A DNA stretch of 63,190 nt from Alphaproteobacteria bacterium (lineage in GTDB: Bacteria > Pseudomonadota > Alphaproteobacteria > CAAHEQ01 > UBA3637), in the NCBI GenBank assembly GCA_051885475.1, contig JBJEXE010000066.1, positions 1 to 63,190 on the forward strand, in the 5' to 3' direction. This document shows, in pieces, positions 1-30,877 of the stretch. A model generated the notes under the pieces. The model had not been told where the DNA came from. It saw only the letters and a list, made by a program, of their open reading frames with translations, and did not search any database. The translations under genes and the position numbers were made by a program. How positions within the stretch are numbered: the first letter of the stretch is position 1; every line of letters begins with the position of its first letter.

Positions 1-726
1 CATACCACCGTTGACATTGACGGTTTGACCAGTGATATAAGCGGATTCTTCGCTGGCCAAAAAAGCCACCACATGCGCGATATCCTGCGGTGTTCCCATA
101 CGCTTCATCGGGATTCTATCCAACATCATCTGTTTAACATTGTCCGGTAAATTTTCCGTCATCGGCGTCGCAATAAAGCCCGGTGCAATACAATTAGCCG
201 TAATGCCGCGCGCACCCACTTCACCAGCCACTGATTTTGTCATAGCAATCAAACCAGCTTTACTGGCGGCATAATTCGCTTGTCCCACATTACCAATCAC
301 CCCAACAATGGAAGCCATAGAAATAATCCGGCCCCAGCGCTTTTTCATCATTTGGGGTAAAACTTCGCGTATCAAACGAAATCCGGCTGTTAAATTGACC
401 GCCAAAACCGCATCCCACATTTCATCCGTCATTCGCATGGAAAGTGTATCTTTTGTGATACCTGCATTATTCACTAAAATATCAATATTTTCAAAGTGTT
501 GTTGAGCGAATTTCACCAAAGACTTTAAGTCATTTATCTGGGTGATATTACCTGCAAAAACGACCACACGGTTCCCCAGTTCGGCCTTTAAACTTTCCAG
601 CGCTTTTATTGATATATCCGTTAAAACCAAATTCGCCCCTAAGGCGTGTAAGGTTTTGGCAATTGCCCTGCCAATCCCCCCTGTTGCCCCCGTAATCAAA
701 GCCGTTTTATTTGTCAAATCAAACAT
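1..726 (-). CDS. fabG: 3-oxoacyl-[ACP] reductase FabG (SDR family); C-terminal few residues cut by window edge
   Basis: The minus frame is open from the window edge to the ATG at 724-726. Translation MFDLTNKTALITGATGGIGRAIA..LVNNAGIT..NYAASKAG..GQTVNVNGGM carries the SDR TGxxxGIG, NNAG and YxxxK motifs. It is absent from the ORF track because no stop lies inside the window. Confidence 0.85.
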   Translation of the reverse strand, partial: MFDLTNKTALITGATGGIGRAIAKTLHALGANLVLTDISIKALESLKAELGNRVVVFAGNITQINDLKSLVKFAQQHFENIDILVNNAGITKDTLSMRMTDEMWDAVLAVNLTAGFRLIREVLPQMMKKRWGRIISMASIVGVIGNVGQANYAASKAGLIAMTKSVAGEVGARGITANCIAPGFIATPMTENLPDNVKQMMLDRIPMKRMGTPQDIAHVVAFLASEESAYITGQTVNVNGGM

Positions 727-9970: not shown

Positions 9971-9996
9971 AAGCCCCTCTGTTAAGGGGCCTTTAT
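9971..9996. terminator. bidirectional hairpin between convergent genes
   Basis: GCCCCT-CTGTTA-AGGGGC with T/A-rich flanks on both sides. Confidence 0.45.
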
Positions 9997-10694: not shown

Positions 10695-10719
10695 TGTTTT
10701 TCCTTTCTTTATAAAAAAA

Positions 10720-10911
10720 TCAATAATGCGGCGGTGGAGTTTCTTCCGATTGGGGTTTAACAAAGGATAAATCCATCGTTTCCTTCAAATTTTTATAATC
10801 CCGCATCAATTGTGCCAACAACCTGTTCAAACGAATCAGTTCCTGATTCATTTCCCCCAGTTGTTTTTCCTGCTCCATAAGGCGCATCTGTAAATCGGTA
10901 ATTTGATCCAT
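10720..10911 (-). CDS. slyX: SlyX-like coiled-coil protein
   Basis: 63 aa. ITDLQMRLMEQEKQLGEMNQELIRLNRLLAQL shows the heptad pattern typical of SlyX. Confidence 0.55.
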   Translation of the reverse strand: MDQITDLQMRLMEQEKQLGEMNQELIRLNRLLAQLMRDYKNLKETMDLSFVKPQSEETPPPHY

Positions 10912-12608: not shown

Positions 12609-12633
12609 TAAAAAGCCGGCCTGATAACCGGCT
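12609..12633 (-). terminator. rho-independent terminator closing the VirB6-like/unknown-gene operon
   Basis: The minus strand reads AGCCGG-TTATCAGG-CCGGCT followed by TTTTT. Confidence 0.6.
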
Positions 12634-12646
12634 GATTTTACCTGCG

Positions 12647-13126
12647 TTACCTGCGTGACGGAATTTTGATTTGGGCAAAAGCACCCGACGGAATCACATA
12701 CTTGCTATAAACAGGATTTTCAATGGATATAGAATTAATAGGACGTTCCGTTTGACGCAAAACATCCGGATAAAAATCTTCTACACTCTTGTCGTATGGG
12801 GTGATATTCATCATATACAGAATACACGCTTCTGAACGAGAAACACGTCCACACAAGGGAAAGCGCCCTTGAATATCAGGGTTCCGAACATATTGGAAAG
12901 GACATTCCGGTTGAGGAGGAGCCGATTCCCCACCAACCATTATAACCCCCAAGAGCAATCCCATGGCAAAAGTTCCCCCTAAAACATACCACAAATAAGG
13001 TAAAATTTTTTGTTTGGGATCTTCAGGTGCCGGTGCAGACGCTTGTTCCTCCGGTTCTTTTGGTTGAGGGGGGGTAAAACCGCTGCCACTGGGGGGCAAA
13101 GGTGCCTTAAAAATCGGTTCAGTCAT
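12647..13126 (-). CDS. hypothetical bitopic membrane protein (Pro-rich N-terminus, 1 TM, 3-Cys periplasmic domain)
   Basis: 159 aa. A PPSGSGFTPPQPKEPEE head is followed by the TM helix LWYVLGGTFAMGLLLGVIMVGG. It overlaps the upstream gene by 8 nt. Confidence 0.5.
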   Translation of the reverse strand: MTEPIFKAPLPPSGSGFTPPQPKEPEEQASAPAPEDPKQKILPYLWYVLGGTFAMGLLLGVIMVGGESAPPQPECPFQYVRNPDIQGRFPLCGRVSRSEACILYMMNITPYDKSVEDFYPDVLRQTERPINSISIENPVYSKYVIPSGAFAQIKIPSRR

Positions 13127-14279
13127 TTTGTTCTCCTTTTTTAATCAGTTGTATAAATTGAAATTGTAAAGACATCATCAGCTCCCGATAGGGGTTTCCC
13201 GGAACAGGAACACCAATAAGCATTACTTTTTGATCCAAATTATTATTCAAATCAAAAGAGGTAATTTCCCCAGAGGAACTATCCAAAGTCAAAACAGTTT
13301 GAGCTTCATTTTTCTTTTTGACAGAAGTTTTCAAAAAAACAGACAGGTCCGGATAGGACGCTTTAACAGAACATTGGTTAAAATTAAAACGGGTCCGCCA
13401 TCCGCTGGGAACTGCCACCTTTCCGGCAGCAATTAAAACAAGTGAAAAAGTCCCCTGCATTGCGGATAAAAATGTTTGATCATCCACAGAAGGCGCCAAT
13501 GTCAAGGCTTGACCCACCAACCCACTTTGAGTAACGGAAATTTTTCTGGTTCCCAATCTGTCCAAAACAAATTGCCAATGTGTTTCAAAAGACGTTGAAG
13601 AAAGGTCATATAATTTGATTTGAGCTGCCAAAATATACTTTTCCTTTACCATCATTCCCATCAAAGATTGAACTTCAGTCAACTCCGGACGCGTCAAATT
13701 CAACGTAATTTGAAAGTTTGTCCAATCAACGGAAAACGGTTCAAAATGAGCCCCGTTTAAAGCATCCAATACCGCCATCATAACCAACTTATTCGCCGGC
13801 ACTTGGATCACGGCTTTTGCTTTATGGGTCAAAAAAAGAGTCTTGGTATCCGGTTGATAGGTATAAAACAGATTACTTTGACGCACCAACTCTTCCATGA
13901 CAACAGAAAGTTCCCCTTTTAAATCATTGGCAGAAAGAGTTGGATATTTTCCTTCTTCAGCAATGACTTTAATTTGAGCGGAATCCAACAATTCCAAAAT
14001 CGCCACATCAGCTGCCTTATTGGAAAACGAAAAACCATTGACCTGATACCGTGGCAACAAACCGGTTTGTCCCGGCAAACGCACCGTAAAATCCGTTTTA
14101 GAAAGCGCCACAGAGGAAGCGATCCCCTCTCCTTCAACGACTGCATCGGAAGAACAGCGAAAGGGAAGTTCAACATCCAAATAGCGCAAGGAATCCGGAT
14201 TATTCATTAACGGAGCAGACTGGGCGGTCAAACAAACCGTCAGCAGTCCCCAAAACAATCCCTTTTTCATCCAATTCAT
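13119..14279 (-). CDS. exported hypothetical protein, weakly secretin-like
   Basis: Signal peptide MNWMKKGLFWGLLTVCLTAQSA. KYILAAQIKLYDLSSTSFETHWQ and the tail LIGVPVPGNPYRELMMSLQFQFI loosely resemble the start and end of secretin domains. 386 aa. Confidence 0.45.
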   Translation of the reverse strand: MNWMKKGLFWGLLTVCLTAQSAPLMNNPDSLRYLDVELPFRCSSDAVVEGEGIASSVALSKTDFTVRLPGQTGLLPRYQVNGFSFSNKAADVAILELLDSAQIKVIAEEGKYPTLSANDLKGELSVVMEELVRQSNLFYTYQPDTKTLFLTHKAKAVIQVPANKLVMMAVLDALNGAHFEPFSVDWTNFQITLNLTRPELTEVQSLMGMMVKEKYILAAQIKLYDLSSTSFETHWQFVLDRLGTRKISVTQSGLVGQALTLAPSVDDQTFLSAMQGTFSLVLIAAGKVAVPSGWRTRFNFNQCSVKASYPDLSVFLKTSVKKKNEAQTVLTLDSSSGEITSFDLNNNLDQKVMLIGVPVPGNPYRELMMSLQFQFIQLIKKGEQND

Positions 14280-14291
14280 CCAATTCCCCCA

Positions 14292-15392
14292 TTACTTTTT
14301 AGGTTTCAAAGAAAAGCTCAATTTTCTTTGTACACTATTTTTGGACGTTTGTGAAGTCTTTTTTTCAGTTTCCTGATTTTCAGCCAAAACTTCTTTTTCC
14401 AATTTTTGATATTGTTCCTTCACCGCTTTTTCATCCAAGGGCGCATCAGAATCTTGAATCAATTCAAATCCGTCCGGCGCAGGCCCCAGATATTCAGGTT
14501 CCGTACTTTCGTCCAAATTGCCCAAAGTTTTACGCACCTCATCCATATTGATATTTTCATCAATCAATGCCGTTGTCGCCGATTCACAGTTTTGAACAGC
14601 AATTTCAATATCTGCTTCCACCGCCTGTTTTTTACGCAAAAGAGCCTCTTCCCCGCCTTCGTATAAATCAGACAAAACCGTTTTGTCTTCCAAATCCAAA
14701 ACCGCCTGAATATCTTTGACAGTCTGACGCATTAAATCCACGGCAAAACCATAGTAAGGATAGGCAAAAACTTCCATATTATTTAATTGCAAACAACGCG
14801 CAGAAAGCCACGCTTGAACCCCCTCCAAAAGGGCAATTTCATTTTTAGCCTTTTGAACAGCAAAAGCAGACGGAGAATTCATATCAATCGTTGATTTTTG
14901 AGGTGTTTCTTCCCCCTCCTCTAGCTTTTCCGGGGAAACTGTTTCTTGGGGGGCGGGCTCTGTTGAGAGTTCTTCTCTGGGGGCTTCTTCCACCACAGAA
15001 TCGGCCTGAACAATTTCCGGTTGCGGCTCTGCCAATTTATTTTCCAACTGCTGATACAACTCTGTTCCCGGATCGCCGAAAAAATCCAACCAATGTTTTA
15101 AAACCGGTAATCTTTCCTGGACATCTGGCTCCAGCGGCTCTTTTTGTTCCAAATAGCTCTGTGTTTCCTGCCAAGCCATTAAGGCCGCGTAGTAATTAAA
15201 GGTATGGTTGAGTTTTTCCTTTAGCTCTGAAGGAAGCCCCCCCAATTGTTCAAAAACGGTTTCAGTCCAATTATCCCCCAATTCTTCAGCCAAAACAGTT
15301 ACCGTTTCCTTTAAAGAATCCTCGGTGCCTTGATAAGCTGTCAAAGCCTGAACAATTCTTTCCTCATTCATTGGACTTTCCTCCTGAAACAT
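14292..15392 (-). CDS. hypothetical acidic cytoplasmic protein
   Basis: 366-aa ORF, E/D/Q-rich, with no signal peptide or TM helix. It is tightly packed in the operon. The start may instead be MNEERIV at 15371. Confidence 0.45.
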   Translation of the reverse strand: MFQEESPMNEERIVQALTAYQGTEDSLKETVTVLAEELGDNWTETVFEQLGGLPSELKEKLNHTFNYYAALMAWQETQSYLEQKEPLEPDVQERLPVLKHWLDFFGDPGTELYQQLENKLAEPQPEIVQADSVVEEAPREELSTEPAPQETVSPEKLEEGEETPQKSTIDMNSPSAFAVQKAKNEIALLEGVQAWLSARCLQLNNMEVFAYPYYGFAVDLMRQTVKDIQAVLDLEDKTVLSDLYEGGEEALLRKKQAVEADIEIAVQNCESATTALIDENINMDEVRKTLGNLDESTEPEYLGPAPDGFELIQDSDAPLDEKAVKEQYQKLEKEVLAENQETEKKTSQTSKNSVQRKLSFSLKPKK

Positions 15393-15918
15393 CTTCTATA
15401 ATTTCCGAATAATTTTCAAAAGCAGTTTTTTTCTCCGGCGCCTTGGGGGGCGCGGTTTGTCCCAAACTTTCAAAAGTATGCAAAAGGGTTTTTATTTGTT
15501 GAACCAAGGCTTCTTTTTGGATTTTCATTTCCTGCCATTCTGCTTCTGAAATCGTAATCATCCCATTGACTTTTTTAATTTCCAAATCATTATCCGGTGT
15601 GGGCAAATACCCCTTTGTTTGCGAAACATTAACTGTATCTTGTTGTTCTGATTCGGTTTTAGAAAGATGGGCATTTTCTTCCAAAAATTCCAAATAATCT
15701 TCTACTTCTTTCCCCCCCATAAAAGTCCCAAGCAAACGTTTAACACCCGGCTTTACTTGCAACAACATTTGGTTATAACGGGAAATAAAATCTTCCCCCA
15801 AAAAGGGTAAAGAACGATAGAGATTGACCAAACGACGTGCCTCTTGCAAAGAGGTACTGTCCTTCTCTGCTTTCTTTTCTTTAAAGTGTTGTAATAAAAG
15901 CTGCGAAGCTTCCGTCAT
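15364..15918 (-). CDS. hypothetical cytoplasmic protein
   Basis: 184-aa ORF lying 10 nt downstream of the HTH gene. I recognise no motif. Confidence 0.45.
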   Translation of the reverse strand: MTEASQLLLQHFKEKKAEKDSTSLQEARRLVNLYRSLPFLGEDFISRYNQMLLQVKPGVKRLLGTFMGGKEVEDYLEFLEENAHLSKTESEQQDTVNVSQTKGYLPTPDNDLEIKKVNGMITISEAEWQEMKIQKEALVQQIKTLLHTFESLGQTAPPKAPEKKTAFENYSEIIEDVSGGKSNE

Positions 15919-15928
15919 TTTTCATCCT

Positions 15929-16897
15929 TTATAATAAAACAATCCAAACAACACGTTCCAACTGTTCAAAGGCAATATCATCCGTTTTTAAATCAGCACC
16001 CAAAATACGTGCTTGTTTTTCCAAAACAGATTGGACACGGACTAATTTATTTTGAGTTGCCCCTTTATAAACAGCCCAATCCCCTTCCCTTAAAGGCATT
16101 AAGGGAGCAATCACCAAAACTGCCCCTGCCGGTAAGGAACAACTGCCAGCCTGTAAACGCAGCGCATACAGCCCCACTTCATCTGATAAAGTAGAGGGGC
16201 ACAAAACAGCACCGACCGAATTTTCCGGATGCATCATCACTTCATCATTTTCATTGATTGTTCCGGTAATCGGCAAGGTAATTTCACGCGAAGAACCGGT
16301 ACGCATCATCAAACGGCTCATTGGTAAGTCATTATACCCCCCCTTAAACAAGCCCACTCCGGTCTTGCCGGCATTGTGTTTAAGTTCATCCAGAGCCCCT
16401 GCCGCATCCAATTCATAAATCTTCAGTTGCAATTCTTCTTCATTCATTCCCAAGGCACGTGCAATATTGGCAAAAGTTTTTTCATCCACTTCCCGTTGCC
16501 CCATTTCAATGCGATGATAAACAGATAAAGTCAACTTGGACAACTTTGCCACACCGTTCAAGGTCATTTTCTTTTGACCACGAATATAACGCAACCCTGC
16601 CCCCAAAATTTTCAACCCACCACCGATATTCATTTGATGACGGCGGTCTTGTTCATCCTGCCAAGCTTTCAAAACCTCCGGCTGCGAAGAAGTTGTTGAC
16701 ACAAATAAACTTTCGCAAGGACAATCTAAAAAAGCAGCAATTTTACGAATTTGTTCTTCATTTAAACGACGATACCCTTTTTCAATTTTACTCATCGCAG
16801 AAATGGTCAAATCCAATAAATGCGCAATTTCAATCATCCGCTTACCCCGCACACGGCGCAGCATTCTGAGTTGATTCGGGAAAACAATTTCTTCCAT
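15929..16897 (-). CDS. XRE-family regulator with two HTH domains and a C-terminal LexA/S24-fold-like domain
   Basis: Two Cro/C1-type HTH units (LRMLRRVRGKRMIEIAHLLDLTISAMSKIEKG; LRYIRGQKKMTLNGVAKLSKLTLSVYHRIEMG). The C-terminal segment AGAVLVIAPLMPLREGDWAVYKG..LVRV is beta-rich. Confidence 0.6.
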   Translation of the reverse strand: MEEIVFPNQLRMLRRVRGKRMIEIAHLLDLTISAMSKIEKGYRRLNEEQIRKIAAFLDCPCESLFVSTTSSQPEVLKAWQDEQDRRHQMNIGGGLKILGAGLRYIRGQKKMTLNGVAKLSKLTLSVYHRIEMGQREVDEKTFANIARALGMNEEELQLKIYELDAAGALDELKHNAGKTGVGLFKGGYNDLPMSRLMMRTGSSREITLPITGTINENDEVMMHPENSVGAVLCPSTLSDEVGLYALRLQAGSCSLPAGAVLVIAPLMPLREGDWAVYKGATQNKLVRVQSVLEKQARILGADLKTDDIAFEQLERVVWIVLL

Positions 16898-16981: not shown

Positions 16982-19372
16982 TTATTTTTTTCCATCAGAA
17001 AATCCTTTTGCAACGGGAGCCTTCATCTTATTCCAGGCTGCCTGTGATTTATTTTTAACCGCTGTTTTGAGGTTTTTAGGTGCGTTTTTAATCGCCTGCC
17101 CAGCCTTTCTTAAATTTTGCGGTGTATTTTTAATCCCCCTGGTTATCGCCCCCGGTGTCTTCACCAGTCCAGAAGCAACTTTCCCTGTGGCACGAATGCC
17201 TGTTGATAAAGTTTTAGCCCCCAAGGTCAAAGGCACCCCCAGGATGGCTCCCACACCTGTTTTTGATAAAGCTTGCCCTAAACCGACCCCGAATTTATCC
17301 ACACCCGAGGCCAAATATTGAGAAGTGCGATTGACAGCGTTGCCCGCTTTTTGTCCAAAATAACGCTTGCTAGCTGCCGGCGAATTACTTTCACCCAAAT
17401 CCTTTAACGGATTTTGACCTGACTTCATACGCCCGTACGCACGCCCAGCCAAATAAGCACCACTTTTCCCATTGGGCACTTTATACGGTTTTACTTTTTG
17501 GGCCACATTGGAGGCCGGCTTCCAAACCTTGTTAGCTGTTCCTTTGATAGCGGCCATTGTCGCCAGCCCCGTTATATCACCACCAATACCACTTGTTCCG
17601 AAAAAGCTTGCAACTGTTTGCGTACAAACAGACAAAATAGAAAGTCCAATAAAAAACAAAGCCACTATCATAAAAAAGAAATACCAGCCACCATTAGAAA
17701 GAATCACATTGAGTAAATTTTCTCCATAGTCTTCGGAATAATTGGCTGTGATAGCTGCTACCAATCTATCTGTATTTCCCAATCCGGTTTCAAAGGAAAT
17801 CATAATAAAGTTGAGTGCCAAAACTAACCCCAAAAAATCGCTGATAATCCCCATCAAAAAGCTAAAACCTTTTTTGGTAAAATCCCGTGTAATCGGAAAA
17901 GCCCAAGTTGCCACAAACAACGGAATCAAAACCAAGACGAAACCGAATCTTAAGAAAATATCAATAATCTTAAAGGCAACCAAAAAGCTGAAAATTGAAA
18001 ATAAAACAACCAAAACAAGACCGACCCCCCACATTTCCAGATCCGGAAACTTCATGAGCCACAAAATCGAGGTTCCTTGGCGAAATGAAAAACCGATAAG
18101 CGATTGGCCGACTGCCGTCATGGGGGAAACTTGACGATACAATTTTTGGGTTAAACAAAGCAAATTTACCTGTAATTCTAGTGTAATCAAACTGTCAGAA
18201 GAATTAGTCAATCTTGAATAATTCTGATCCATGCCCGGAATAACCGCACCCATCAATCGCCTAGCAGGACTATTTTCCGTTCCTGAAGAACTGCTAAAAG
18301 AAAGCGTACAATAATCCGGTCCCCTGGAAGCTATCCCCACACCGGAACGCACGTCATCAGCAAAACTAAACATAGATTCATCCAGATGATCGGAAATATC
18401 CTGAGAAAGACCCAGTCCCAAACTCACAATCGGGGACAAAAAAGAGCCGTATAAAGTTTTCAAATTATCTCCTGATGATAAAATCAGCGCCGCAATCATC
18501 ATACATAAAACGCGGGTCATCAAATCCTTTAAAAAGGAAGCCCCTTTACTGGGAAAAATAACGGCCAAAAAAGCGGCATACAAAATCCACAAAAGCATAA
18601 ATATCTTCAGGATATTTATCCCCGCTTCACGCATATTCGTTTCCAAATGAGAGCTCATTGATTGGACCACCGTCAACGTAATATAGGCCATTTTGCACGG
18701 CCAACAGCCGGAATCATTCGCATCTTTGCGCATAATCTGTCCAACAGTCTTAGCAACTGTGCTCGGATGACGGCGTTCATAGGCGGAACAAAGAGTGGCA
18801 AAATAAGAGGCACAAGCCATTTCTTCCGCATTGATTCCTGCTTCAGAAAAATTTTGCTTCCATTCATTCCAATGTGAATCTTGACGGAAAGAGCGCCATG
18901 TTTTTTGTTCTGCAGCCGTCAGTTTATCCTTTTTAGTAAAACCGTCAGTGGTCTTTTTTAACCCGTTTGTCGCTTGACGAGCCCTATCCCAATCATCCTC
19001 ATCGCAAGGTTGATCCCCTTCCCAATTCTGCGCTTTGGCATTAAAGGTTTGTTGATCATATCTTTCCGCCAACTGACAAAAGGAATCTGCCCACAGAGAG
19101 TTGCTCCACAATAAAGTTCCCCCTAAAAGAACATAAATCAAGTGTTTTTTCCTGAGGAAATTTCTGGACGCCCTTTTTTCAACGACAGGGGAAGCGGCCG
19201 ACTGGCAAAAATAACGACGCCCCCAAAAACACCCCCAAATCCCTATCAACAACAAAATCAATCCCGTCAAAATAAAATGAATATACGGAATTTCAAACAG
19301 GCGAATTTTTAACATTAAGAAAAAAATCGTCCCCAAAAATAAAATTTGCAAAAGGTGTCTGAATAAATGCAT
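16982..19372 (-). CDS. VirB6/TrbL-like polytopic membrane protein, paralog 3, with Lys/Asn/Gly-rich C-terminal tail
   Basis: 796 aa with many TM helices, a CWPC motif and the LVLIPLFVATWAFPITRDFTKKGF core. It is paralogous to the two upstream ORFs, and its start overlaps the upstream stop by 1 nt. Confidence 0.55.
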   Translation of the reverse strand: MHLFRHLLQILFLGTIFFLMLKIRLFEIPYIHFILTGLILLLIGIWGCFWGRRYFCQSAASPVVEKRASRNFLRKKHLIYVLLGGTLLWSNSLWADSFCQLAERYDQQTFNAKAQNWEGDQPCDEDDWDRARQATNGLKKTTDGFTKKDKLTAAEQKTWRSFRQDSHWNEWKQNFSEAGINAEEMACASYFATLCSAYERRHPSTVAKTVGQIMRKDANDSGCWPCKMAYITLTVVQSMSSHLETNMREAGINILKIFMLLWILYAAFLAVIFPSKGASFLKDLMTRVLCMMIAALILSSGDNLKTLYGSFLSPIVSLGLGLSQDISDHLDESMFSFADDVRSGVGIASRGPDYCTLSFSSSSGTENSPARRLMGAVIPGMDQNYSRLTNSSDSLITLELQVNLLCLTQKLYRQVSPMTAVGQSLIGFSFRQGTSILWLMKFPDLEMWGVGLVLVVLFSIFSFLVAFKIIDIFLRFGFVLVLIPLFVATWAFPITRDFTKKGFSFLMGIISDFLGLVLALNFIMISFETGLGNTDRLVAAITANYSEDYGENLLNVILSNGGWYFFFMIVALFFIGLSILSVCTQTVASFFGTSGIGGDITGLATMAAIKGTANKVWKPASNVAQKVKPYKVPNGKSGAYLAGRAYGRMKSGQNPLKDLGESNSPAASKRYFGQKAGNAVNRTSQYLASGVDKFGVGLGQALSKTGVGAILGVPLTLGAKTLSTGIRATGKVASGLVKTPGAITRGIKNTPQNLRKAGQAIKNAPKNLKTAVKNKSQAAWNKMKAPVAKGFSDGKK

Positions 19373-20742
19373 TATTTTTTACCTTCCTTTGAGGGCGCCT
19401 TATTTTGTTTTGAAGCTTTTTGAGAATTGTCCTGCTGCCCTTCTTCTTGTTTATCATCAGCTTTATCCCCGGAACCGTTTTCACCGGATTCAGTGTTTGT
19501 CACCTCTTTAGCTAAATCTTTGGCCGCGCCGGCTATACCGGCCACAGCCCCCACCGGACCAGATAAAAGAGCTGCCCCTACACGAATTCCTTTCACCGCC
19601 AAATTTTTGATGGCATTAACAGCATCAATCATTGAGGATTTTCCGGCACTGTCAAAAAAGTATTTTGAAAAATCTTGAATTTTACCGGATAATTTAACCA
19701 TAACCCAAGCCAACATAGTCAAGATTAAAAAATCTGTGCCAAAGTTTTCGGCCGTCGTACGCATTCCGCCTTCTGTTGTTTGGACCGAAGCCGAAAACAT
19801 ATAGGGCATTTCCTGATTTTCATAAACGCGAAAAGTACTGATTAAGAAGGTGATGTAAATACAGCTGAACAAAATATCAAAAAAGCCGGCAAACAGGTTA
19901 TGAAACACTGTTTTAACAATCCCCTTTGGATAAGAAAAGACCCATCCCACCATCAATAAAGGAGATAACATTATAATTAAACCGATGCGAACAAAGGCAT
20001 CCACAAAAGAAAGCGGCATCATCACCACCAACCAAAGCATTCCGGCAATCAAAATAATTCCGGCAATGGTGGCACTCCAGCCTTTCATGGTCCATAATTG
20101 AAAGCCCAATCCCACATTCGCCCACAAAGCATCATAAATTTGATAGACCATCCCTTGAACACTGACCGCCAAGCCACCAAACATTCTGCTGTCGGAAACA
20201 GAGTTGGAAGAAGAAGAACCAGAAAGAGCATTTATAATATCCTGTATCTCACGTAATATGCCTGATCTATAGTTAAAACCGATTCCCAAACTTTGCTGCG
20301 GCGTTTCCAAAACTATATTTGCCATAGATAAAAATCCGTCCCCAATCGGTTGAATCACCGTCGCCCCAAAAAAATCATAAAGATAGGTCGGGTTATTTAA
20401 AAACAAAGCCACAATCATTGCTTTAAACAACACAGTGATAAAAGAAGAAAATTCCTTTTTCATATTCGGCATTGAAAAAGCGCCAACCACACGAGCGACC
20501 CGAAACAACAACCAAAAAAGCAACGCCAATTCCAACACCATCAATGAATTTTGACAGATAATATTTAAAGAGCCATCCAAGACACCGTCTATTGCTTTAA
20601 AGGCTTGCATATACATTTTGCAGGGCCAACAGTTATCTGGACTTGCCCTAAACATTTCCGCATTATAAGGAACATTGGAATCACATCCCGCCAACCAAAG
20701 CAAGAGCAAAAACATTCCCCAAATACGCATCCGTTTCATCAT
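19372..20742 (-). CDS. VirB6/TrbL-like polytopic membrane lipoprotein, paralog 2
   Basis: 456 aa with an LAGC lipobox, a CWPC motif and the IMLSPLLMVGWVFSYPKGIVKTVF core. An ATGA overlap joins it to the upstream gene. Confidence 0.55.
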   Translation of the reverse strand: MMKRMRIWGMFLLLLWLAGCDSNVPYNAEMFRASPDNCWPCKMYMQAFKAIDGVLDGSLNIICQNSLMVLELALLFWLLFRVARVVGAFSMPNMKKEFSSFITVLFKAMIVALFLNNPTYLYDFFGATVIQPIGDGFLSMANIVLETPQQSLGIGFNYRSGILREIQDIINALSGSSSSNSVSDSRMFGGLAVSVQGMVYQIYDALWANVGLGFQLWTMKGWSATIAGIILIAGMLWLVVMMPLSFVDAFVRIGLIIMLSPLLMVGWVFSYPKGIVKTVFHNLFAGFFDILFSCIYITFLISTFRVYENQEMPYMFSASVQTTEGGMRTTAENFGTDFLILTMLAWVMVKLSGKIQDFSKYFFDSAGKSSMIDAVNAIKNLAVKGIRVGAALLSGPVGAVAGIAGAAKDLAKEVTNTESGENGSGDKADDKQEEGQQDNSQKASKQNKAPSKEGKK

Positions 20743-22874
20743 GTTATGTAGTCCGATACTTGACCTGTTAAGAGGTCAGTTTTTTTATTGGTTTGCAAAT
20801 TGACTTTGAATTTTTCGGTTATGTTATTATCTTTATCGGTGGATTGTGTAAAAAATCCAGTTCTAACACCGCGTGCATCATACTGATTTGTTTCAAGGGT
20901 GGTATTTCCATCGCGATCTTTCATTGTTATTTTGGTTTCATTTCCTCTTGCATCAAATTCAGTTTGTGTAACGTTTCCATCACGATCTTTTACGGTCTTG
21001 CTCGTTTTACTTCCATTTGAATCAAACTCAGTTTTTGTGGTACCAGCGTTTGTTGTTTCCAAGGTAGACTTTTTCCTGTCCAAAGCATCATATTCTGTTG
21101 CCACTTTCGTTGAAGTGCCATCTTTATTATAACGCGTTTCGGTCATCACAGTTCCTGTTTTCATACCATTAGTCATGCTTTCGCGTTTTTGGATTTTAGA
21201 TTCCAGCTGCCCGTTGGCATTTCTGACAATTTCTTCAACTTCTTGATGCGTGACGTTACCATTGGCATCCTTAAAGACCTTAAGGTTTCTTTCTTTTGTT
21301 CCCCCGTTGGCAAGTTGCTCTCTGGAAGACGTTGTTGAAACACTTGGTCTTTGCGGTTGCGGAGTCCCGCCGCTGCCAGCAGGAGAAGGTGCATTTCCGT
21401 CTGTCGGGTTTCGGCCATAGCCTTCTGCTTCCCCTTCATGGAAAGCCTGGACAGTTTTTTTGGCCAACCCTGCCCCCGGCACATCCGACCATCTTAAAGG
21501 TTTACCGGATTTAATACGACCGGCCACAAACCCTGCGGCATAAGGAGTTTTCTTAATTCCTTCCTTGATCTCGGAAGCCCCCTTTTGAAGAACCGGCTTG
21601 GCCACTTTATTCCCCATCAAAGCAACACCAGCCATAGCTGCCCCTTCCAAAGCGGAGCCCATACCACCGCCGGTACTTCCTCCGACAAAATTATTCACAA
21701 AGCTATCCGTTTGTTTAACCAAAGCATTGGCCAGAAAAGTCATTGCCAGCATTGTGAAGAAAGTGCCCGTGGACCAATCAATCATTTTCAACGCCTCTTC
21801 TGTTTTCCCCATAGTTAAAAGTTGCCAAAAGCGAGTACTATTATCACCCAATCCATCCAAAGCAGCCCCCAAAATGGTCAGGCTCATTTGCAAAATAACT
21901 GATAAAACAATAAAAGTGACCAAGACATTTAAAAACATATCAAGGGCTTTTTTACTGTAGCCACGTGTGGCCGGTAAGACCCACAAAACAACCCATAACG
22001 GCATCAAGGCCGAAACGAACATCAACCGGAACATGGAATCTACCAACTTGAACGGAAAGGAAAGGAAAAGGCCAAATGTCATAATAAATAAACAAAGTCC
22101 CACCCCCAACATAGACCACTTTGGAAAAATCAAACCCAATTTGAAGGAATCTGTGATAAAAGTGGCCCCCAAAGCCATATACAGAATTAAGTTAGAAGAA
22201 ACTGTCTTTAAAAAACATTGAATCGCATTATTCACTTCCGGCCCGAAACCATTATTTTGAGAAGTGGTAGAAACAGAGGAAAGAGCATCGCAGGCATTTA
22301 TCCGTGTCGTTGTTCCGCTACGGGAATTCACTTGCACGGTCAATTCTCTTGCCGAATCAGTAGAGAGTATTTCCGTTGAAAAACCAATGGAAAGGGCGGT
22401 TAAAGGATTCACAACTTGCGCATAAAAACTGCCCAAATTGTATAAAACAGCCATTGCCACCAAACACTTCAAAACCGGCATAAACAACTCGGTAAAAAAT
22501 TCTTTCGGACTGGTTGCCCCGAAAGAAACAACGGCCTTCAAAACTTTAAACAAAATATAAAAGCTCAATCCCAACCCCAATAAAAGCTTCCCATCCGCTA
22601 TTAAAGTATCCGAAAGAGAAGCCGTTATCGTGTTGATGGCATTGAATAAGGTCGTAAAAATATCACAAAACCAACAGCCTTCATTAATAGAGGTAAAGGA
22701 TTCCATCACCTTAACAAATGATCCATTATCTCCAAAAAAATAGTTATAGAGCCGATAAATACCGTATGCAGCAGCAATCACAACGACAGGAGCAATCGCC
22801 TGCGCCATTATTGGTGCAAACAAGGCCGAAAGAAAAATTCCCCACCGGGCAAACTGTTTTTTAATTTTTGACAT
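20739..22874 (-). CDS. VirB6/TrbL-like polytopic membrane protein, paralog 1, with YD-repeat-like C-terminal tail
   Basis: CWFC motif and ALMPLWVVLWVLPATRGYSKKAL core. The start is taken at MSKIKKQ (22874), which follows a GGGGGA RBS; the track ORF starts at 22916. Confidence 0.55.
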   Translation of the reverse strand: MSKIKKQFARWGIFLSALFAPIMAQAIAPVVVIAAAYGIYRLYNYFFGDNGSFVKVMESFTSINEGCWFCDIFTTLFNAINTITASLSDTLIADGKLLLGLGLSFYILFKVLKAVVSFGATSPKEFFTELFMPVLKCLVAMAVLYNLGSFYAQVVNPLTALSIGFSTEILSTDSARELTVQVNSRSGTTTRINACDALSSVSTTSQNNGFGPEVNNAIQCFLKTVSSNLILYMALGATFITDSFKLGLIFPKWSMLGVGLCLFIMTFGLFLSFPFKLVDSMFRLMFVSALMPLWVVLWVLPATRGYSKKALDMFLNVLVTFIVLSVILQMSLTILGAALDGLGDNSTRFWQLLTMGKTEEALKMIDWSTGTFFTMLAMTFLANALVKQTDSFVNNFVGGSTGGGMGSALEGAAMAGVALMGNKVAKPVLQKGASEIKEGIKKTPYAAGFVAGRIKSGKPLRWSDVPGAGLAKKTVQAFHEGEAEGYGRNPTDGNAPSPAGSGGTPQPQRPSVSTTSSREQLANGGTKERNLKVFKDANGNVTHQEVEEIVRNANGQLESKIQKRESMTNGMKTGTVMTETRYNKDGTSTKVATEYDALDRKKSTLETTNAGTTKTEFDSNGSKTSKTVKDRDGNVTQTEFDARGNETKITMKDRDGNTTLETNQYDARGVRTGFFTQSTDKDNNITEKFKVNLQTNKKTDLLTGQVSDYIT
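20817..21278 (-). repeat. coding YD/RHS-like short repeats in the tail of VirB6-like paralog 1
   Basis: Recurrent D-x-(D/N)-G-N-x-T ... (Y/F)-D-x-x-G units: KDANGNVT, RYNKDGTST, EYDALDRK, EFDSNGSKT, KDRDGNVTQTEFDARGNET, KDRDGNTTLETNQYDARGVRT. Confidence 0.5.
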
Positions 22875-22957
22875 ATATCCCCCAATCTGAAATAACTTAT
22901 GAAGGTATGCTAACATAAGGATTTTTAAAAAACAAGCCTTTTTTTTGGAAAATTGAC

Positions 22958-22989
22958 AAAAAAATATGCCGGGATGAAAACCGGCATAT
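22958..22989 (-). terminator. rho-independent terminator after secF
   Basis: The minus strand reads ATATGCCGG-8 nt-CCGGCATAT followed by TTTTTTT. Confidence 0.6.
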
Positions 22990-23012
22990 CTTTTGGCAGA
23001 TAAAAAGAATAT

Positions 23013-26963: not shown

Positions 26964-28187
26964 ATGGTCCGCTTTTTATTATTTTGTTGCGTCAGTGTGT
27001 TGTGTCAAGGGGCAATGGCTCAAACATCAGCCTTGGGGATTGAATGCCAAGAAGCCGTGCGGGCCGGCGAAAACATCCGAAATCCGGCCGTCTATGCGGC
27101 GTGCGGGTTTGATGAGCGGCAAAAAGCCTTTGGTGAATGGGCGCTATGGGCCGAAAAAGAAAAAGCGGGACAAGCCCTTTATGAAATCTGTGTCAGGCAC
27201 CCTGAAGCCCCTCAAGCCGAAAGGTATTGTCAAAAGGCTGTTCAATTGGGAAACGGCCCGGCTTTGGTCAGAGCCGCAAACCAAAAATATCAGCAAAAAG
27301 AGTATGCCGCAGCGGCCGGTTTTTACACGCGCGCTTTGAGCTCCCCCCTTTTGAGCGAGGCGGAAAAAGGCGACATTTCCCAAAAAATGGGGCTTCTTTA
27401 TTTAAACCCCGACAGCAATTATTATAATCCAGCCAAGGGGCTGCTCTTGATTGAACGCGCCGTCGGGCGTCGGGGCGCCGAAGCCAATAATTTAATGGGG
27501 GTCTATGCTTTATTTGGAATGCAAGGCGTGCCCCAAAATGCCGAAAAATCCTTTGAATATTTGTGGCGGGCCGTTTTATTAGGGTGTCCCGCTGCCGAAG
27601 AAAATTTAGGCCTGTGGCATTTGGCAAAGCAAAAAAAGATAAGTACTCAAACCACCCGTCAAGAAATGTCAAAACGAATGTTTTCCTGCGTTGCACCAGA
27701 ATATGTGGCGCCAGCTGAAATTCAAAAAAATAACTGCGATTGTCAGGAAGTGGCGGAGCGGGAACGCTTGGCCGGGCTTTATCCTTACCGGTTGGTGGCC
27801 GTTGCCGAAAATTTACAGGCTGCCACGGTGTTGGATCCGCAAGGTCAGCGCATCAATGCTAAGGTCGGGACTGAACTGGGCAACAAAATGAAAGTCAGTG
27901 AAATCAAAAAAAAGGCTGTCTTTTTAACCTCGGGTGGCGCACGCATGGTGTTGAATTTGGCGCCCGTGGATAATTGCCCCGAACTGTGCCGTCAACAAAA
28001 AGCAGGAAGAGCGGCTTTGGCCAAAACAATCAAGCCCTATCACTTGACTTTTACCCCCCGCGAATGTTCGGACATTTTATATTATGCCGAACGTTTGGTT
28101 GACACAAATTTGCCCTTTACCGGCAAAACCGAGTGCAGCTTTTCGGCCGAGATGGATAAAACAACCGATTTGTTGATGAACTTGTAA
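26964..28187 (+). CDS. secreted Sel1-like repeat (SLR/TPR) protein with an extra C-terminal domain
   Basis: Signal peptide MVRFLLFCCVSVLCQGAMA. Sel1-type repeats (AEANNLMGVYALFGMQGVPQNAEKSFEYLWRAVLLGCPAAEENLG). The C-terminal roughly 170 aa do not belong to the repeat region. Confidence 0.65.
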   Translation: MVRFLLFCCVSVLCQGAMAQTSALGIECQEAVRAGENIRNPAVYAACGFDERQKAFGEWALWAEKEKAGQALYEICVRHPEAPQAERYCQKAVQLGNGPALVRAANQKYQQKEYAAAAGFYTRALSSPLLSEAEKGDISQKMGLLYLNPDSNYYNPAKGLLLIERAVGRRGAEANNLMGVYALFGMQGVPQNAEKSFEYLWRAVLLGCPAAEENLGLWHLAKQKKISTQTTRQEMSKRMFSCVAPEYVAPAEIQKNNCDCQEVAERERLAGLYPYRLVAVAENLQAATVLDPQGQRINAKVGTELGNKMKVSEIKKKAVFLTSGGARMVLNLAPVDNCPELCRQQKAGRAALAKTIKPYHLTFTPRECSDILYYAERLVDTNLPFTGKTECSFSAEMDKTTDLLMNL

Positions 28188-28270: not shown

Positions 28271-30877
28271 ATGAAATTAAAATTGTTTAAGTCCGCCAAT
28301 GAAAGATATTTAAAAAAATTTGATAAAGTTATAAAAAAAATCAATGCCTTAGAGCCAGAAATTCAAGCATTAACTGATGCTGAATTGGCCGCAAAAACAA
28401 CAGAATTTAAAGAACGGCTGAAACAAGGAGAAACTTTAAAAGAGTTATTACCAGAAGCCTTTGGGGTCGTGAGAGAAGCCGCCAAACGGACTTTGGGGTT
28501 GCGTCCTTTTGACGTGCAATTATTGGGGGGAATGGTTTTATTTGATGACAAAATCGCCGAAATGCGTACCGGCGAAGGAAAAACTTTGGTTGCCACCCTG
28601 CCCGTTTATTTAAACGCCCTGACAGGAAAAGGGGTTCACGTTGTGACGGTCAATGATTATTTGGCCAGCCGAGACAGCGAGTGGATGGGGAAAATCTATC
28701 GTTTTTTGGGAATGAGTGTGGGCTGTATTGTCGCCAATATGCCCAATGACAAACGCCGGGAAGCCTATGCGTGCGATATCACCTATGGGACAAATAATGA
28801 ATTCGGCTTTGATTACCTGCGCGACAATATGTGCTTTTCAAAAGCCGAAATGGTTCAACGTCCCTTTCATTACGCCATTGTAGATGAAGTGGATTCCATT
28901 TTAATTGATGAAGCCAGAACACCTTTGATTATTTCGGGACGGGCCGAAGATTCGTCTGACAAATACAAAGCCGTGGATGCCATTATGATTCATATTCGTC
29001 CTGAACATTATGAAAAAGATGAAAAACATAAGAATGTAACTTTGACAGAATTGGGAACAGAATTTGTAGAAAACGCTTTACGAGAAGCCGGGTTGATGAC
29101 AGGTTCATTATATGATACAGCCAATATTCCCTTGGTGCATTATGTGGAACAAGCCTTGCGCGCTCATACTTTATTTAACAAAGATGTGGATTACATTGTC
29201 AAAGACGGCAAGGTGATGATTATTGATGAATTTACGGGCCGTATTATGGACGGACGTCGGTATTCCAACGGTTTGCATCAGGCCTTGGAAGCCAAAGAAG
29301 GCGTCATGATTCAACCGGAAAATCAAACACTGGCCAGTATTACTTTTCAAAATTATTTCCGGATGTATCCCCATTTAGCCGGAATGACCGGAACAGCTTT
29401 GACGGAAGCTGCCGAATTTGATGATATTTATAAGCTGATTGTTATTGATGTGCCGACCAACAAACCTTTGGCACGCAAAGATGAACACGATGTGATTTTC
29501 AGAACAGCTGCCGAAAAATATGATGCCATTATCAAGGACATTGAAGAAGCCCATCGGCGGGGACAACCGATTTTGGTGGGCACAACCTCCATTGAAAAAT
29601 CGGAAATTTTGGCAAAACTGTTAAAAGAAAAAACCAATCTGTCATTCAACGTGCTCAATGCACGCCACCACGAACAAGAGGCTCAGATTATTGCTCAAGC
29701 AGGTGTCCCAGGCGCCATTACCATTGCGACCAATATGGCCGGACGCGGAACGGATATTCAGCTGGGGGGCAACTTTGATATGCGTTTGAAGGCTGAATTG
29801 GAAAAAAATCCGGAAGCTAACCCAGAAGAATTAAGTGATAAAATTCATAATGAAATTGCGGCAGCCAAGGAAGTGGCTTTGAAGGCCGGAGGATTATATG
29901 TGTTGGGCTCAGAGCGGCACGAAAGTCGCCGAATTGACAACCAATTACGGGGACGTTCCGGACGTCAGGGAGACCCGGGATTATCCAAATTTTATGTGTC
30001 TTTGGAAGATGATCTGATGCGGATTTTCGGAAGTGAGCGCATCGGACGTATTTTACAAACAATGGGCTTGAAACAAGGCCAATCCATTGTTCATCCTTGG
30101 ATTAGTAAAGCCATTGCCAAAGCACAACAAAAAGTAGAATCTTTCCATTTTGATGTCCGTAAAAACTTGCTGAAATATGATGACGTGATGAATGAACAAC
30201 GCAAGATTATCTATGAACAACGCCGGCAATTATTGGAAACTGATTCAGTCCACGATATTATCGGGGATATGCGCAAAGATGCCTTTGAAAGTGTGATTTA
30301 TTCTTTGGCCCCCGAACGCTCGGTTCCGGATGATTGGGATGCCGAAGCTTTACGGCAAGCTGTTTTACAACTGACCAATATTGACATTCCCTTTGATTCT
30401 TGGAAAGCCGAACCCGGCATGACTCCGGAAGAAATGGTGGAACGCCTGTGCAAAAAAGCAGAAGAAGTTCAGAATCAAAAATGGGCAGAACTTCCCCAAA
30501 AGACACGTGATGAGCTGGAACGTTCCTTGTTGGTGCAATCAGTGGATCAACTGTGGAAAGAACATTTGCAGAGTTTGGATTTTATGAAAACCTCTATCGG
30601 GCTGCGTGCTTATGGGCAGAAAAATCCGTTAAACGAATATAAACACGATGCCTTTATTTTGTTCCAAAATATGCTGGAGCGCATTCGGGAACGTATTTGT
30701 CAGGTGATGGCTTTTTCAGAACTGCGTGTGAAACAGGCTGAGCAGGAAAAAACCCCTGCGACACCGGCAAAAGAAGAACCAGCGAAACAACAGGAAAATT
30801 TGGACATTCCTCGCAATGCCCCCTGCCCTTGCGGCTCAGGGAAAAAGTATAAGCATTGTTGCGGAAAATTAGCTTGA
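28271..30877 (+). CDS. secA: preprotein translocase ATPase SecA
   Basis: 868 aa. Walker [27 protein letters not shown], and the C-terminal zinc motif [14 protein letters not shown]. Confidence 0.97.

What the first reader, a model, noticed from the sequence alone, without database searches (positions are those of the whole stretch)
16982..22916. Three translationally coupled VirB6/TrbL-like paralogs with a shared CWxC motif, separated from all other T4SS genes
Three consecutive polytopic ORFs (711-725, 456 and 796 aa) overlap by 4 nt (ATGA) and 1 nt (TAATG). They are clear paralogs. Each has an N-proximal CW(F/P)C motif (SINEGCWFCDIF, SPDNCWPCKMYM, NDSGCWPCKMAY) followed by the same helix layout. 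Each also has a core segment (ALMPLWVVLWVLPATRGYSKKAL, LVLIPLFVATWAFPITRDFTKKGF, IMLSPLLMVGWVFSYPKGIVKTVF) that resembles the GPLF..T(R/K)xFF..W region of TrbL/VirB6. Each carries a different hydrophilic C-terminal tail. Tandem VirB6 paralogs with long tails are a hallmark of the Rickettsiales rvh type IV system, where they follow virB3-virB4. Here the upstream neighbours are yajC-secD-secF, with a terminator at 22958-22989 in between. The triplet is therefore uncoupled from the ATPase genes and is joined to unknown genes instead. I do not recognise the conserved Cys pair as a described VirB6 feature.
Basis: partly seen in the sequence, partly recalled or inferred. Interest (0 to 1): 0.65.

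Follow-up and report, generated by a model that had tools for sequence, protein, structure and literature searches.

The report
Cysteine-marked VirB6-like triplet, no ATPase nearby
Three adjacent membrane-protein genes are distant relatives of VirB6, the central platform protein of bacterial type IV secretion machines, and belong to a large unannotated family from uncultured gut Alphaproteobacteria that carries an almost invariant periplasmic Cys-x-x-Cys pair and is never found next to the usual secretion-machine genes.

Summary
Three minus-strand ORFs (711/725, 456 and 796 aa) overlap by ATGA and TAATG, are paralogs, and share CW(F/P)C.

The VirB6 reading also holds, but only with profile and fold methods. 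hhalign against nine classical VirB6 proteins gives 94.8% probability (E 5e-8). All top Foldseek hits are R388 TrwI/VirB6. The window proteins themselves stay below Pfam's TrbL cut-off.

They belong to a family of at least 1,920 cluster representatives. The 30 looked up carry no name or are named 'hypothetical protein [Alphaproteobacteria bacterium]'. CxxC is present in 235 of 238 members and lies just N-terminal to where classical VirB6 begins. A signal peptide or lipobox, and in two relatives an M23 peptidoglycan peptidase, place it in the periplasm.

Arrays of three to five or six paralogs are followed, wherever enough downstream sequence was held, by a double-HTH regulator. Four unknown genes follow in at least 14 loci. 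No VirB2-B11 or VirD4 homolog was found in about 626 kb around the arrays.

Most likely these are extended-VirB6 platform subunits of a divergent envelope machine. I could not test whether canonical ATPases lie elsewhere in these genomes. I rate it a new variant of a known kind, moderately to highly interesting.

The parts
20739..22916 (-). Paralog A, an extended VirB6-like protein. The likely start is 22874 (711 aa). It has a signal peptide, CWFC (22665-22676), a VirB6 core, a loop Cys pair (22290-22292 and 22215-22217) and a tail with 5 YD-like repeats.
19372..20742 (-). Paralog B, a short VirB6-like protein with a lipobox (LAGC, Cys20, Asp at +2). It has CWPC (20620-20631) and no loop Cys pair.
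16982..19372 (-). Paralog C, an extended VirB6-like protein. It has N-terminal hydrophobic helices, a Cys-rich N-terminal domain, CWPC (18695-18706), a VirB6 core, a loop Cys pair (18308-18310 and 18155-18157) and a basic tail.
15929..16897 (-). Regulator with two HTH_3 domains. It follows the array in every related locus where enough downstream sequence was held.
15364..15918 (-). Conserved accessory gene u184: predicted soluble and helical, of variable length (172-719 aa) in relatives. Function unknown.
14292..15392 (-). Conserved accessory gene u366: an acidic soluble protein with the motif EYLGPAPDGF, invariant except for the Gly before Phe. Function unknown.
13119..14279 (-). Conserved accessory gene u386: a protein with a signal peptide, predicted to be periplasmic or in the outer membrane. 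Function unknown.
12647..13126 (-). Conserved accessory gene u159: a bitopic protein with a Pro-rich N-terminus, one TM helix, and a C-terminal domain of about 90 aa with 2 invariant Cys.
22959..22994 (-). Terminator-like hairpin after secF. It marks the upstream boundary of the operon.
12614..12633 (-). Terminator-like hairpin after u159. It marks the downstream boundary of the 8-gene operon.

Best explanation
The three genes encode paralogous 'extended VirB6' proteins. They belong to a large, previously unannotated, Cys-marked branch of the TrbL/VirB6 superfamily that so far is seen only in uncultured Alphaproteobacteria, mostly from guts.

Shown: homology and fold; an almost invariant CxxC placed just before the helix that corresponds to VirB6 alpha1; a second, co-varying Cys pair in the large loop of classes A and C; tandem arrays of three to five or six paralogs; and a conserved operon (array, double-HTH regulator, four lineage-specific proteins) bounded by terminators.

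Inferred: as in R388, each subunit is anchored in the inner membrane by its two N-proximal core helices, and the rest forms a pentameric periplasmic platform. The paralogs co-assemble or alternate in that platform, and translational coupling would favour matched synthesis. The CxxC sits in the oxidising periplasm at the N-cap of alpha1. There it forms either a local disulfide (structural or redox-switchable) or an inter-subunit or metal site near where VirB5 docks in classical systems. The hydrophilic tails (YD-like repeats in A) project into the periplasm or to the cell surface.

The platform most likely serves a divergent type-IV-like envelope machine. Its ATPases and outer-membrane parts, if canonical, are encoded elsewhere, as in the scattered rvh systems of Rickettsiales.

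Confidence that these are VirB6 homologs is about 0.9. Confidence in the full functional reading (they work with a T4SS encoded elsewhere) is about 0.45-0.5.
For: Homology:
- hhalign A3 vs A7: 94.8%, E 5e-8.
- Per class: 96.2%, 85.4% and 88.0%.
- Pfam TrbL hit in 27 of 50 relatives, best 6.6e-9; one relative is above the cut-off.
- AF2 model: pLDDT 72.6, all-helical. Foldseek's top hits are TrwI/VirB6 chains 8rt9_F, 7o3v_J/G/F/I/H and 8rtd_L/H/I, probability 0.97-1.0, TM 0.50-0.60 normalised to the target.

Family size: 1,920 representatives at E<=1e-3.

Cysteines:
- CxxC in 235 of 238 members; the 3 exceptions are SxxS, so both were lost together.
- Loop pair: both present in 176, both absent in 50, Cys220 never alone.

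Periplasmic location:
- Signal peptide in A and lipobox in B.
- Extra conserved Cys in the N-terminal domain of C.
- Peptidase_M23 (E 4e-21 and 1.5e-19) inserted between the signal peptide and CxxC in L040 and L041.

Operon and context:
- Overlapping stop/start codons and flanking terminators.
- Conserved context in many species-level MAGs.
- GC equals the genome background, 0.418 vs 0.416.

Architecture of VirB6 (seven helices, only alpha1 and alpha2 in the membrane, pentamer, VirB5 docking) is taken from PMC9259494. The extended-VirB6 class is from PMC12857230. Rickettsiales arrays and their surface-exposed tails are from PMC7648143.
Against: No VirB2-B11 or VirD4 homolog was found by phmmer in the window or in about 626 kb around the related arrays. 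None appears in the Pfam scans of the other window genes I scanned, which were most of the larger ORFs.

The constant partners are proteins with no detectable similarity to T4SS components.

The window proteins themselves do not reach Pfam's TrbL threshold. Foldseek E-values are modest (1.7e-3 at best) and the query-normalised TM-score is only 0.37.

Pentamer formation, hetero-assembly, the redox state of the CxxC and tail location are all inferred, not tested. I could not scan the whole genomes.
Confidence: 0.5

Rival explanations
1. Autonomous VirB6-derived module. The paralog array, together with the four lineage-specific proteins (two cytoplasmic, one bitopic, one exported) and its own regulator, forms a self-contained envelope complex. 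It no longer uses the VirB4, VirB11 or VirD4 ATPases. Possible roles are surface display or release of the variable tails, or a contact or adhesion device.
For: The same gene set always travels with the array, while the flanking housekeeping genes change. No T4SS gene lies in about 626 kb of array neighbourhoods. The partner set includes an exported protein and a bitopic membrane protein, which are the components an envelope-spanning device would need. Some arrays carry their own peptidoglycan hydrolase domain.
Against: Every characterised VirB6 homolog works within a T4SS (PMC12857230). There is no energy source in the module. Rickettsiales show that T4SS genes can be scattered, so absence nearby says little about absence from the genome. 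Whole genomes were not scanned.
Confidence: 0.3
2. The CxxC makes these proteins membrane thiol-disulfide oxidoreductases, analogous to DsbB or VKOR. The CxxC at a helix N-cap plus the loop Cys pair would relay electrons. On this reading the VirB6 resemblance reflects only a shared helical scaffold.
For: The arrangement of a CxxC at the membrane-periplasm boundary plus a second periplasmic loop Cys pair mirrors DsbB and VKOR (my own knowledge). Both pairs co-vary as pairs.
Against: Class B and 50 other members lack the loop pair yet keep the CxxC. No DsbB or VKOR match appears among the Foldseek hits shown or the Pfam results listed. Homology to VirB6 spans the whole core (265 columns). No quinone-site features were identified.
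Confidence: 0.05
3. The VirB6 similarity is spurious, arising from compositional matches between hydrophobic helices, and the family is an unrelated polytopic membrane protein.
For: The window proteins are below Pfam's threshold. There is no PDB sequence hit, no tblastn hit in plasmids, and only 13-15% identity in the profile and structure alignments.
Against: Three independent lines converge on VirB6 and nothing else: the Pfam HMM in 27 of 50 members, hhalign for each class separately, and Foldseek's top hits. The alignments are co-linear over the full core and include the conserved Pro-containing segment.
Confidence: 0.04
4. These are decaying remnants of an ancestral T4SS with no current function.
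For: Other T4SS genes are absent nearby.
Against: The ORFs are intact and translationally coupled. Motifs are invariant across orthologs that share only 18-68% identity. Gene order is conserved in many species, and the family has expanded to more than 1,900 clusters.
Confidence: 0.02

Closest known systems
Classical VirB6/TrbL (e.g. R388 TrwI, A. tumefaciens VirB6; Pfam PF04610)
   Same: The helical core is homologous over about 265 columns. The conserved Pro-containing segment (LMPLWV..P.TR here, GPLFI..T..F..W in VirB6) is present. The predicted fold matches TrwI chains. The N-proximal helices are hydrophobic.
   Different: There is an N-terminal extension with a signal peptide or lipobox and a near-invariant CxxC, which nine classical VirB6 proteins lack. 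Most members have a second Cys pair in the large loop. The proteins carry long hydrophilic tails and occur in tandem arrays of three to five or six paralogs. They are not encoded beside virB5, eex, virB8 or virB4. The window proteins are below the Pfam cut-off.
Rickettsiales rvh extended VirB6 paralogs (RvhB6a-e; Anaplasma/Ehrlichia VirB6-1..4)
   Same: Both are tandem, co-transcribed arrays of several enlarged VirB6 paralogs with different hydrophilic extensions. Some paralogs have lipoboxes. Both occur in Alphaproteobacteria. In both, T4SS genes do not form one cluster.
   Different: Rickettsiales arrays directly follow virB3-virB4 (with sodB upstream in Anaplasma). Here they follow unrelated genes and precede a regulator and four unknown genes. 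No CxxC is described for RvhB6. The hosts are uncultured gut MAGs, not known intracellular Rickettsiales. Orthology to RvhB6 was not tested because no sequences were on hand.
Extended VirB6 of Gram-positive MPF_FA systems and Legionella DotA
   Same: A VirB6 core is enlarged by extra hydrophilic domains.
   Different: Those proteins are encoded inside recognisable T4SS clusters and occur as single copies. No similarity beyond the core was seen.
T4SS-associated peptidoglycan hydrolases (VirB1; PrgK with a LytM domain)
   Same: In two relatives (L040, L041) a Peptidase_M23 domain is part of the system, as cell-wall hydrolases are in T4SSs.
   Different: Here the hydrolase is fused to the N-terminus of a VirB6-like paralog. 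The window's own three proteins lack it.

Membership tests
TrbL/VirB6 superfamily (PF04610) | Significant profile similarity to TrbL/VirB6 across the hydrophobic core | tested here: met
   hhalign of the family against 9 classical VirB6: 94.8%, E 5e-8, 265 columns. Per class: A 96.2%, B 85.4%, C 88.0%. Pfam TrbL hit in 27 of 50 relatives, best 6.6e-9, and one relative at 26.6 bits, above the 25.9 cut-off. Caveat: window protein A scores 23.1 bits, below the cut-off, and B and C give no direct Pfam hit.
TrbL/VirB6 superfamily (PF04610) | VirB6 fold (bundle of long helices as in TrwI) | tested here: met
   AF2 model: pLDDT 72.6, pTM 0.66. Foldseek against the PDB: ranks 1-6 and 8-10 are TrwI/VirB6 chains, probability 0.97-1.0, TM 0.50-0.60 by target length, E 1.7e-3 to 0.4. 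The match is moderate, not strong.
TrbL/VirB6 superfamily (PF04610) | Conserved Pro/Trp-containing segment after the central hydrophobic helices | tested here: met
   P292 in 237 of 238 members, W298 in 200 of 238, T303 in 192 of 238. This segment aligns to GPLFI...T..F..W of TrwI and the A7 set. The register of the downstream Asn differs by one residue.
TrbL/VirB6 superfamily (PF04610) | Encoded within or beside a T4SS gene cluster (virB4, virB5, virB8 and so on) | tested here: not met
   phmmer with R388 VirB2-B11 and VirD4 found no credible hit in the window plus the related loci, about 626 kb in all. Pfam scans of most of the larger remaining window ORFs showed no T4SS family. Whole genomes were not scanned.
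TrbL/VirB6 superfamily (PF04610) | Pentameric assembly and contact with VirB5, VirB8 or VirB10 | not testable with these tools
   No multimer prediction or experiment was available.
Rickettsiales rvh RvhB6 arrays | Tandem array of three or more enlarged VirB6 paralogs with distinct hydrophilic extensions | tested here: met
   Three paralogs in the window, three to five or six in relatives, with tails of 50-370 aa in the window.
Rickettsiales rvh RvhB6 arrays | Array lies immediately downstream of virB3-virB4 | tested here: not met
   Upstream is secF plus a terminator in the window, and unrelated genes in other loci. The rvh reference arrangement is from PMC7648143.
Rickettsiales rvh RvhB6 arrays | Sequence orthology to RvhB6, and a host within Rickettsiales | not tested
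   No RvhB6 sequences were reachable in the collections. Nearly all MAG titles say only 'Alphaproteobacteria bacterium'.
TraG_N (F-type VirB6-like) | Match to the Pfam TraG_N profile | tested here: not met
   No TraG_N hit for the window proteins at E<=1, nor among the families listed for 18 and 50 members.
DsbB/VKOR-type membrane oxidoreductases | Four-helix DsbB or VKOR fold with a CxxC plus a loop Cys pair | tested here: not met
   The Cys pattern is similar, but no DsbB or VKOR match appears among the Foldseek hits shown or the Pfam results listed. The loop pair is absent in 50 of 238 members.

The most novel reading that the evidence does not exclude
The array and its five constant partners form a new, self-contained envelope machine that evolved from the VirB6 platform of a T4SS and no longer depends on T4SS ATPases. 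Its periplasmic CxxC would act as a redox-controlled latch for assembly, or for release of the variable tails. If so, gut Alphaproteobacteria carry a previously unrecognised class of secretion or surface-display system.
Probability: 0.3. Interest if true: 0.85.

Novelty: new variant of a known kind. Interest (0 to 1): 0.62.

Why it matters
VirB6 is a conserved component of type IV secretion systems, yet why some lineages (Rickettsiales) multiply and enlarge it is a long-standing open question.

This family shows the same behaviour, with tandem enlarged paralogs, in an independent and apparently non-Rickettsiales set of Alphaproteobacteria from human and ruminant guts. It adds a sharply defined and testable feature: an almost invariant periplasmic CxxC at the start of helix alpha1.

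The family is large (at least 1,920 clusters at 50% identity). Every named member among the 30 looked up is called 'hypothetical protein', and it is consistently tied to five other genes, four of them without any known relative.

Two outcomes are possible. Either it marks a scattered, highly divergent T4SS in a little-known gut lineage that also encodes ankyrin-repeat proteins, or it marks a new VirB6-derived machine. Either result would be useful to T4SS specialists and to people annotating gut MAGs.

Tried and rejected
- Word-indexed protein searches found only 17-22 close relatives. They gave no names or Pfam labels and badly understated the family's size.
- PDB sequence-profile searches with A1 and A2 gave only low-complexity noise and no VirB6.
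- tblastn of the A core against plasmids gave no match.
- hhalign against the single TrwI sequence was weak (10.9%, E 0.0028). It became significant only with a nine-sequence VirB6 profile.
- Accessory genes, u386: profile PDB and Pfam searches found nothing beyond one Secretin_N hit at E 0.045 in 1 of 13 members. Single-sequence AF2 failed (pLDDT 36). hhalign against E. coli GspD gave 0.3%. My impression that u386 has a secretin-like N0 domain is therefore unsupported.
- Accessory genes, u366, u159 and u184: no PDB hits, and no Pfam hits for u366, the only one scanned as a family.
- No accessory family matched any R388 VirB or VirD4 protein by hhalign.
- The metagenome scan added only 9 short loci.
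- The secDF adjacency was rejected as functionally meaningful because it holds only in one subclade.
- fam5 and fam12, the upstream divergent genes in other loci, have no homolog in the window.
- A 7-TM, C-terminus-in topology drawn from hydropathy was not adopted as the preferred model. The R388 structure shows that only two helices cross the membrane.
- An RF32 assignment of the lineage could not be verified.


Full report
OBSERVATION

The three ORFs are real and lie where stated: 20739-22916, 19372-20742 and 16982-19372, all on the minus strand. Their junctions read ACATGATGAAA (stop TGA inside start ATG, a 4-nt overlap) and AAATAATGCAT (TAA and ATG sharing one A). The first ORF most likely starts at its second ATG (22874, 711 aa). 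That codon follows a GGGGGA Shine-Dalgarno-like run and is the start used in the public protein record.

BLASTP shows paralogy: A-C 3e-28 over 466 residues, A-B 3e-11, B-C 3e-9. Class profiles match each other at 99.8-100%. CWFC, CWPC and CWPC translate from 22665-22676, 20620-20631 and 18695-18706.

A 14-bp-stem terminator follows secF at 22994-22959. A second one follows the eighth gene at 12633-12614. The unit is therefore an eight-gene operon, with GC content equal to the rest of the window (0.418 vs 0.416).

ARE THEY VirB6?

Direct HMM evidence is weak. Protein A scores 23.1 bits on Pfam TrbL, below the 25.9 cut-off, and B and C score nothing. NCBIfam gives nothing, PDB sequence searches give nothing, and tblastn against plasmids gives nothing.

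The picture changes once the family is used instead of single sequences.
- An exhaustive profile search found 1,920 cluster representatives at E<=1e-3, and 1,449 at <=1e-10.
- Of 50 diverse representatives, 27 hit TrbL at E<=0.01, the best at 6.6e-9. One relative passes Pfam's threshold at 26.6 bits.
- I built a reference profile from R388 TrwI and eight other plasmid VirB6 proteins. hhalign of the family against it gives 94.8% probability, E 5e-8. It is co-linear over 265 columns, from family positions 51-395 to VirB6 positions 9-277.
- Each paralog class matches on its own: A 96.2%, E 2e-9; B 85.4%, E 6e-6; C 88.0%, E 3e-6.
- An AlphaFold2 model of the A core (pLDDT 72.6, pTM 0.66, all-helical) has the TrwI/VirB6 chains of the R388 stalk as Foldseek ranks 1-6 and 8-10. 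Probability is 0.97-1.0 and target-normalised TM is 0.50-0.60. Nothing else is credible.
- No TraG_N match appeared for the window proteins or among the families listed for their relatives.

I conclude that the three proteins are true but distant VirB6 homologs of the 'extended VirB6' type (for the term, see PMC12857230).

THE CYSTEINE SIGNATURE

Across 238 family sequences, the two Cys of the motif are present in 235. The three exceptions have Ser at both positions, so the two residues are kept or lost together. Trp follows the first Cys in 213 of 238. CWFC is the commonest form, with 112 of 165 in the census.

The hhalign alignment begins two residues after the motif, at VirB6 position 9. 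The CxxC therefore sits at the N-cap of the helix equivalent to VirB6 alpha1, on an N-terminal extension that classical VirB6 lacks. TrwI has a single Cys, and none of the nine classical proteins has a CxxC there.

A second pair, Cys195 and Cys220 of A, lies in the long loop. Both are present in 176 members, both absent in 50 (including class B), and Cys220 never occurs alone. This is the behaviour expected of two separate disulfide or ligand pairs.

Literature searches found no link between VirB6 and CxxC. The only CxxC in T4SS papers is the thioredoxin-like TrbB of F plasmids.

WHERE THE MOTIF SITS

Four observations place the N-terminal extension in the periplasm.
- A has a signal peptide. 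Orthologs show clear cleavable ones.
- B has a lipobox, LAGC, with Asp at +2.
- C has a further Cys-rich domain before the motif, with four Cys conserved in its orthologs.
- In two relatives (L040, 948 aa; L041, 982 aa) a Peptidase_M23 peptidoglycan endopeptidase domain (E 4e-21 and 1.5e-19) lies between the signal peptide and the CxxC. That enzyme acts only outside the cytoplasm.

The motif is therefore periplasmic.

For the rest of the protein, hydropathy alone would allow seven membrane spans with a cytoplasmic tail. The R388 structure, however, shows only alpha1 and alpha2 in the membrane, with the remainder forming a periplasmic pentamer (PMC9259494). On that architecture the tails are periplasmic or surface-directed.

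This fits the YD-like repeats in the tail of A: five motifs in A, and at least three motifs in 21 of 148 family tails against 0 in shuffled tails. It also fits the reported surface exposure of Anaplasma VirB6 tails (PMC7648143). This step is inference.

CONTEXT

Relatives come from uncultured Alphaproteobacteria MAGs from the guts of humans (Hadza), yak, sheep, roe deer and buffalo. Every name found is 'hypothetical protein [Alphaproteobacteria bacterium]'.

In every locus with enough sequence, the array runs long, short (about 420-495 aa), long, and sometimes has four to six members. It is followed by the same double-HTH regulator, and in at least 14 loci also by homologs of u184, u366 and u386, then in nine of those loci by u159.

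yajC-secD-secF upstream, and the tRNA synthetase downstream, occur only in one subclade. Elsewhere a divergent set lies upstream: a 211-aa protein, a Gln-rich protein of about 700 aa, a two-TM protein, and pgpA. In the window only the last two have homologs, at 35832-37155, after a 1,077-aa ankyrin protein.

phmmer with R388 VirB2-B11 and VirD4 found nothing in 536 kb plus 90 kb of these neighbourhoods. The window genes I scanned, which were most of the larger ORFs, are housekeeping or unannotated.

The four accessory proteins have no detectable relatives in Pfam, NCBIfam or the PDB, or among R388 T4SS proteins. A single-sequence model of u386 failed, and a comparison with E. coli GspD was negative.

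MECHANISM

Best reading, at about 0.5: the three proteins are platform subunits of a divergent type-IV-like machine. By analogy with R388 they would form a VirB6-type pentamer. The pentamer could be mixed, which the translational coupling and the constant long-short-long order would favour. It would be anchored by two helices. The CxxC would form a periplasmic disulfide or an inter-subunit or metal site at the end of alpha1, and the tails would point outward. The canonical ATPases would be encoded elsewhere, as in Rickettsiales, where T4SS genes are scattered.

Main rival, at about 0.3: the array and its five constant partners are a self-contained derivative that no longer uses T4SS ATPases.

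The data at hand cannot separate these two readings, because whole genomes could not be scanned. That scan is the decisive computation.

The minor rivals are poorly supported: a DsbB/VKOR-like oxidoreductase, spurious similarity, and decaying remnants (see the rival list).

COMPARISON AND NOVELTY

The proteins work like, and are homologous to, VirB6. They resemble the Rickettsiales RvhB6 arrays in being tandem and enlarged, and in part lipoproteins. They fail that system's defining linkage to virB3-virB4, and orthology to it was not tested.

The new elements are these:
- an almost invariant periplasmic CxxC;
- the co-varying loop Cys pair;
- the conserved operon with unknown partners;
- the occasional M23 fusion;
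- the size of a family that public annotation leaves unnamed.

I rate this a new variant of a known kind, with interest 0.62.

LIMITS

- Foldseek E-values are modest.
- The structural model rests on 21 sequences.
- Topology beyond the N-terminus, oligomeric state, redox state and function are all inferred.
- The taxonomic placement of the lineage within Alphaproteobacteria was not resolved.

Noticed in passing
window 32580-35813 (+): A 1,077-aa protein with ankyrin repeats (Ank_2, E 6e-18). It has an acidic repeat region and a Pro/Thr/Ser-rich tandem repeat (PTPAAPKTSSG-like; DNA repeats of period 39-126 at 34958-35238 and period 69 at 34053-34225). It looks like a eukaryote-interacting effector or surface protein. 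It occupies the position that a Gln-rich protein of about 700 aa holds in related loci, but is not detectably homologous to it.
   Followed up: partly
L040:6461-9307 and L041:8137-11085: The last VirB6-like paralog of these arrays carries a Peptidase_M23 (LytM-type peptidoglycan endopeptidase) domain between its signal peptide and the CxxC. I found no report of a VirB6-hydrolase fusion in the papers searched.
   Followed up: partly
window 14292-15392 (-) and orthologs (alignment A8): The accessory protein u366 has a C-terminal motif, EYLGPAPDGF, in which every residue except the Gly before Phe is invariant across 14 orthologs that are otherwise only 24-80% identical. It looks like a docking peptide for an unknown partner.
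   Followed up: no
window 30869-31477 (-): An Fe/Mn superoxide dismutase gene lies 8 kb upstream of the array on the same strand. In Anaplasma the VirB6 operon is sodB-virB3-virB4-virB6x4 (PMC7648143). Here secA, a Sel1-like gene, dksA and yajC-secDF intervene, so this may be coincidence or a remnant of old synteny.
   Followed up: no
L010-L012, L016, L019, L022, L024, L028, L039 (upstream of the arrays); window 35832-37155: In most loci outside the secDF subclade, a divergent operon sits directly upstream of the array. It encodes a helical protein of about 211 aa, a Gln-rich disordered protein of about 600-730 aa, a two-TM protein of 293-457 aa, and pgpA. In the window only the last two are present, 13 kb away.
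   Followed up: partly
window 53090-53971 (-): A CdaA-type diadenylate cyclase (DAC domain, E 1.5e-40, with the CdaA N-terminal TM domain). To my knowledge c-di-AMP synthesis genes are not common in Alphaproteobacteria.
   Followed up: no
window 861-2018 (+): A flavodiiron-type protein (ODP metallo-beta-lactamase plus flavodoxin). Together with the gut origin of all relatives, it suggests an anaerobic or microaerophilic lifestyle.
   Followed up: no
window 9996-10763 (-) and 26964-28187 (+): A SHOCT+TM2-domain membrane protein, and a 407-aa protein with a weak Sel1-repeat hit, flank the region. Both are lineage-specific proteins of unknown role.
   Followed up: no
L013 and L017 (same MAG, JAXFZX01): One genome carries a three-gene array on one contig and a solitary VirB6-like paralog on another. 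L026 likewise has an extra TrbL-like gene about 10 kb from its array. Genomes can therefore hold more copies than the array shows.
   Followed up: no
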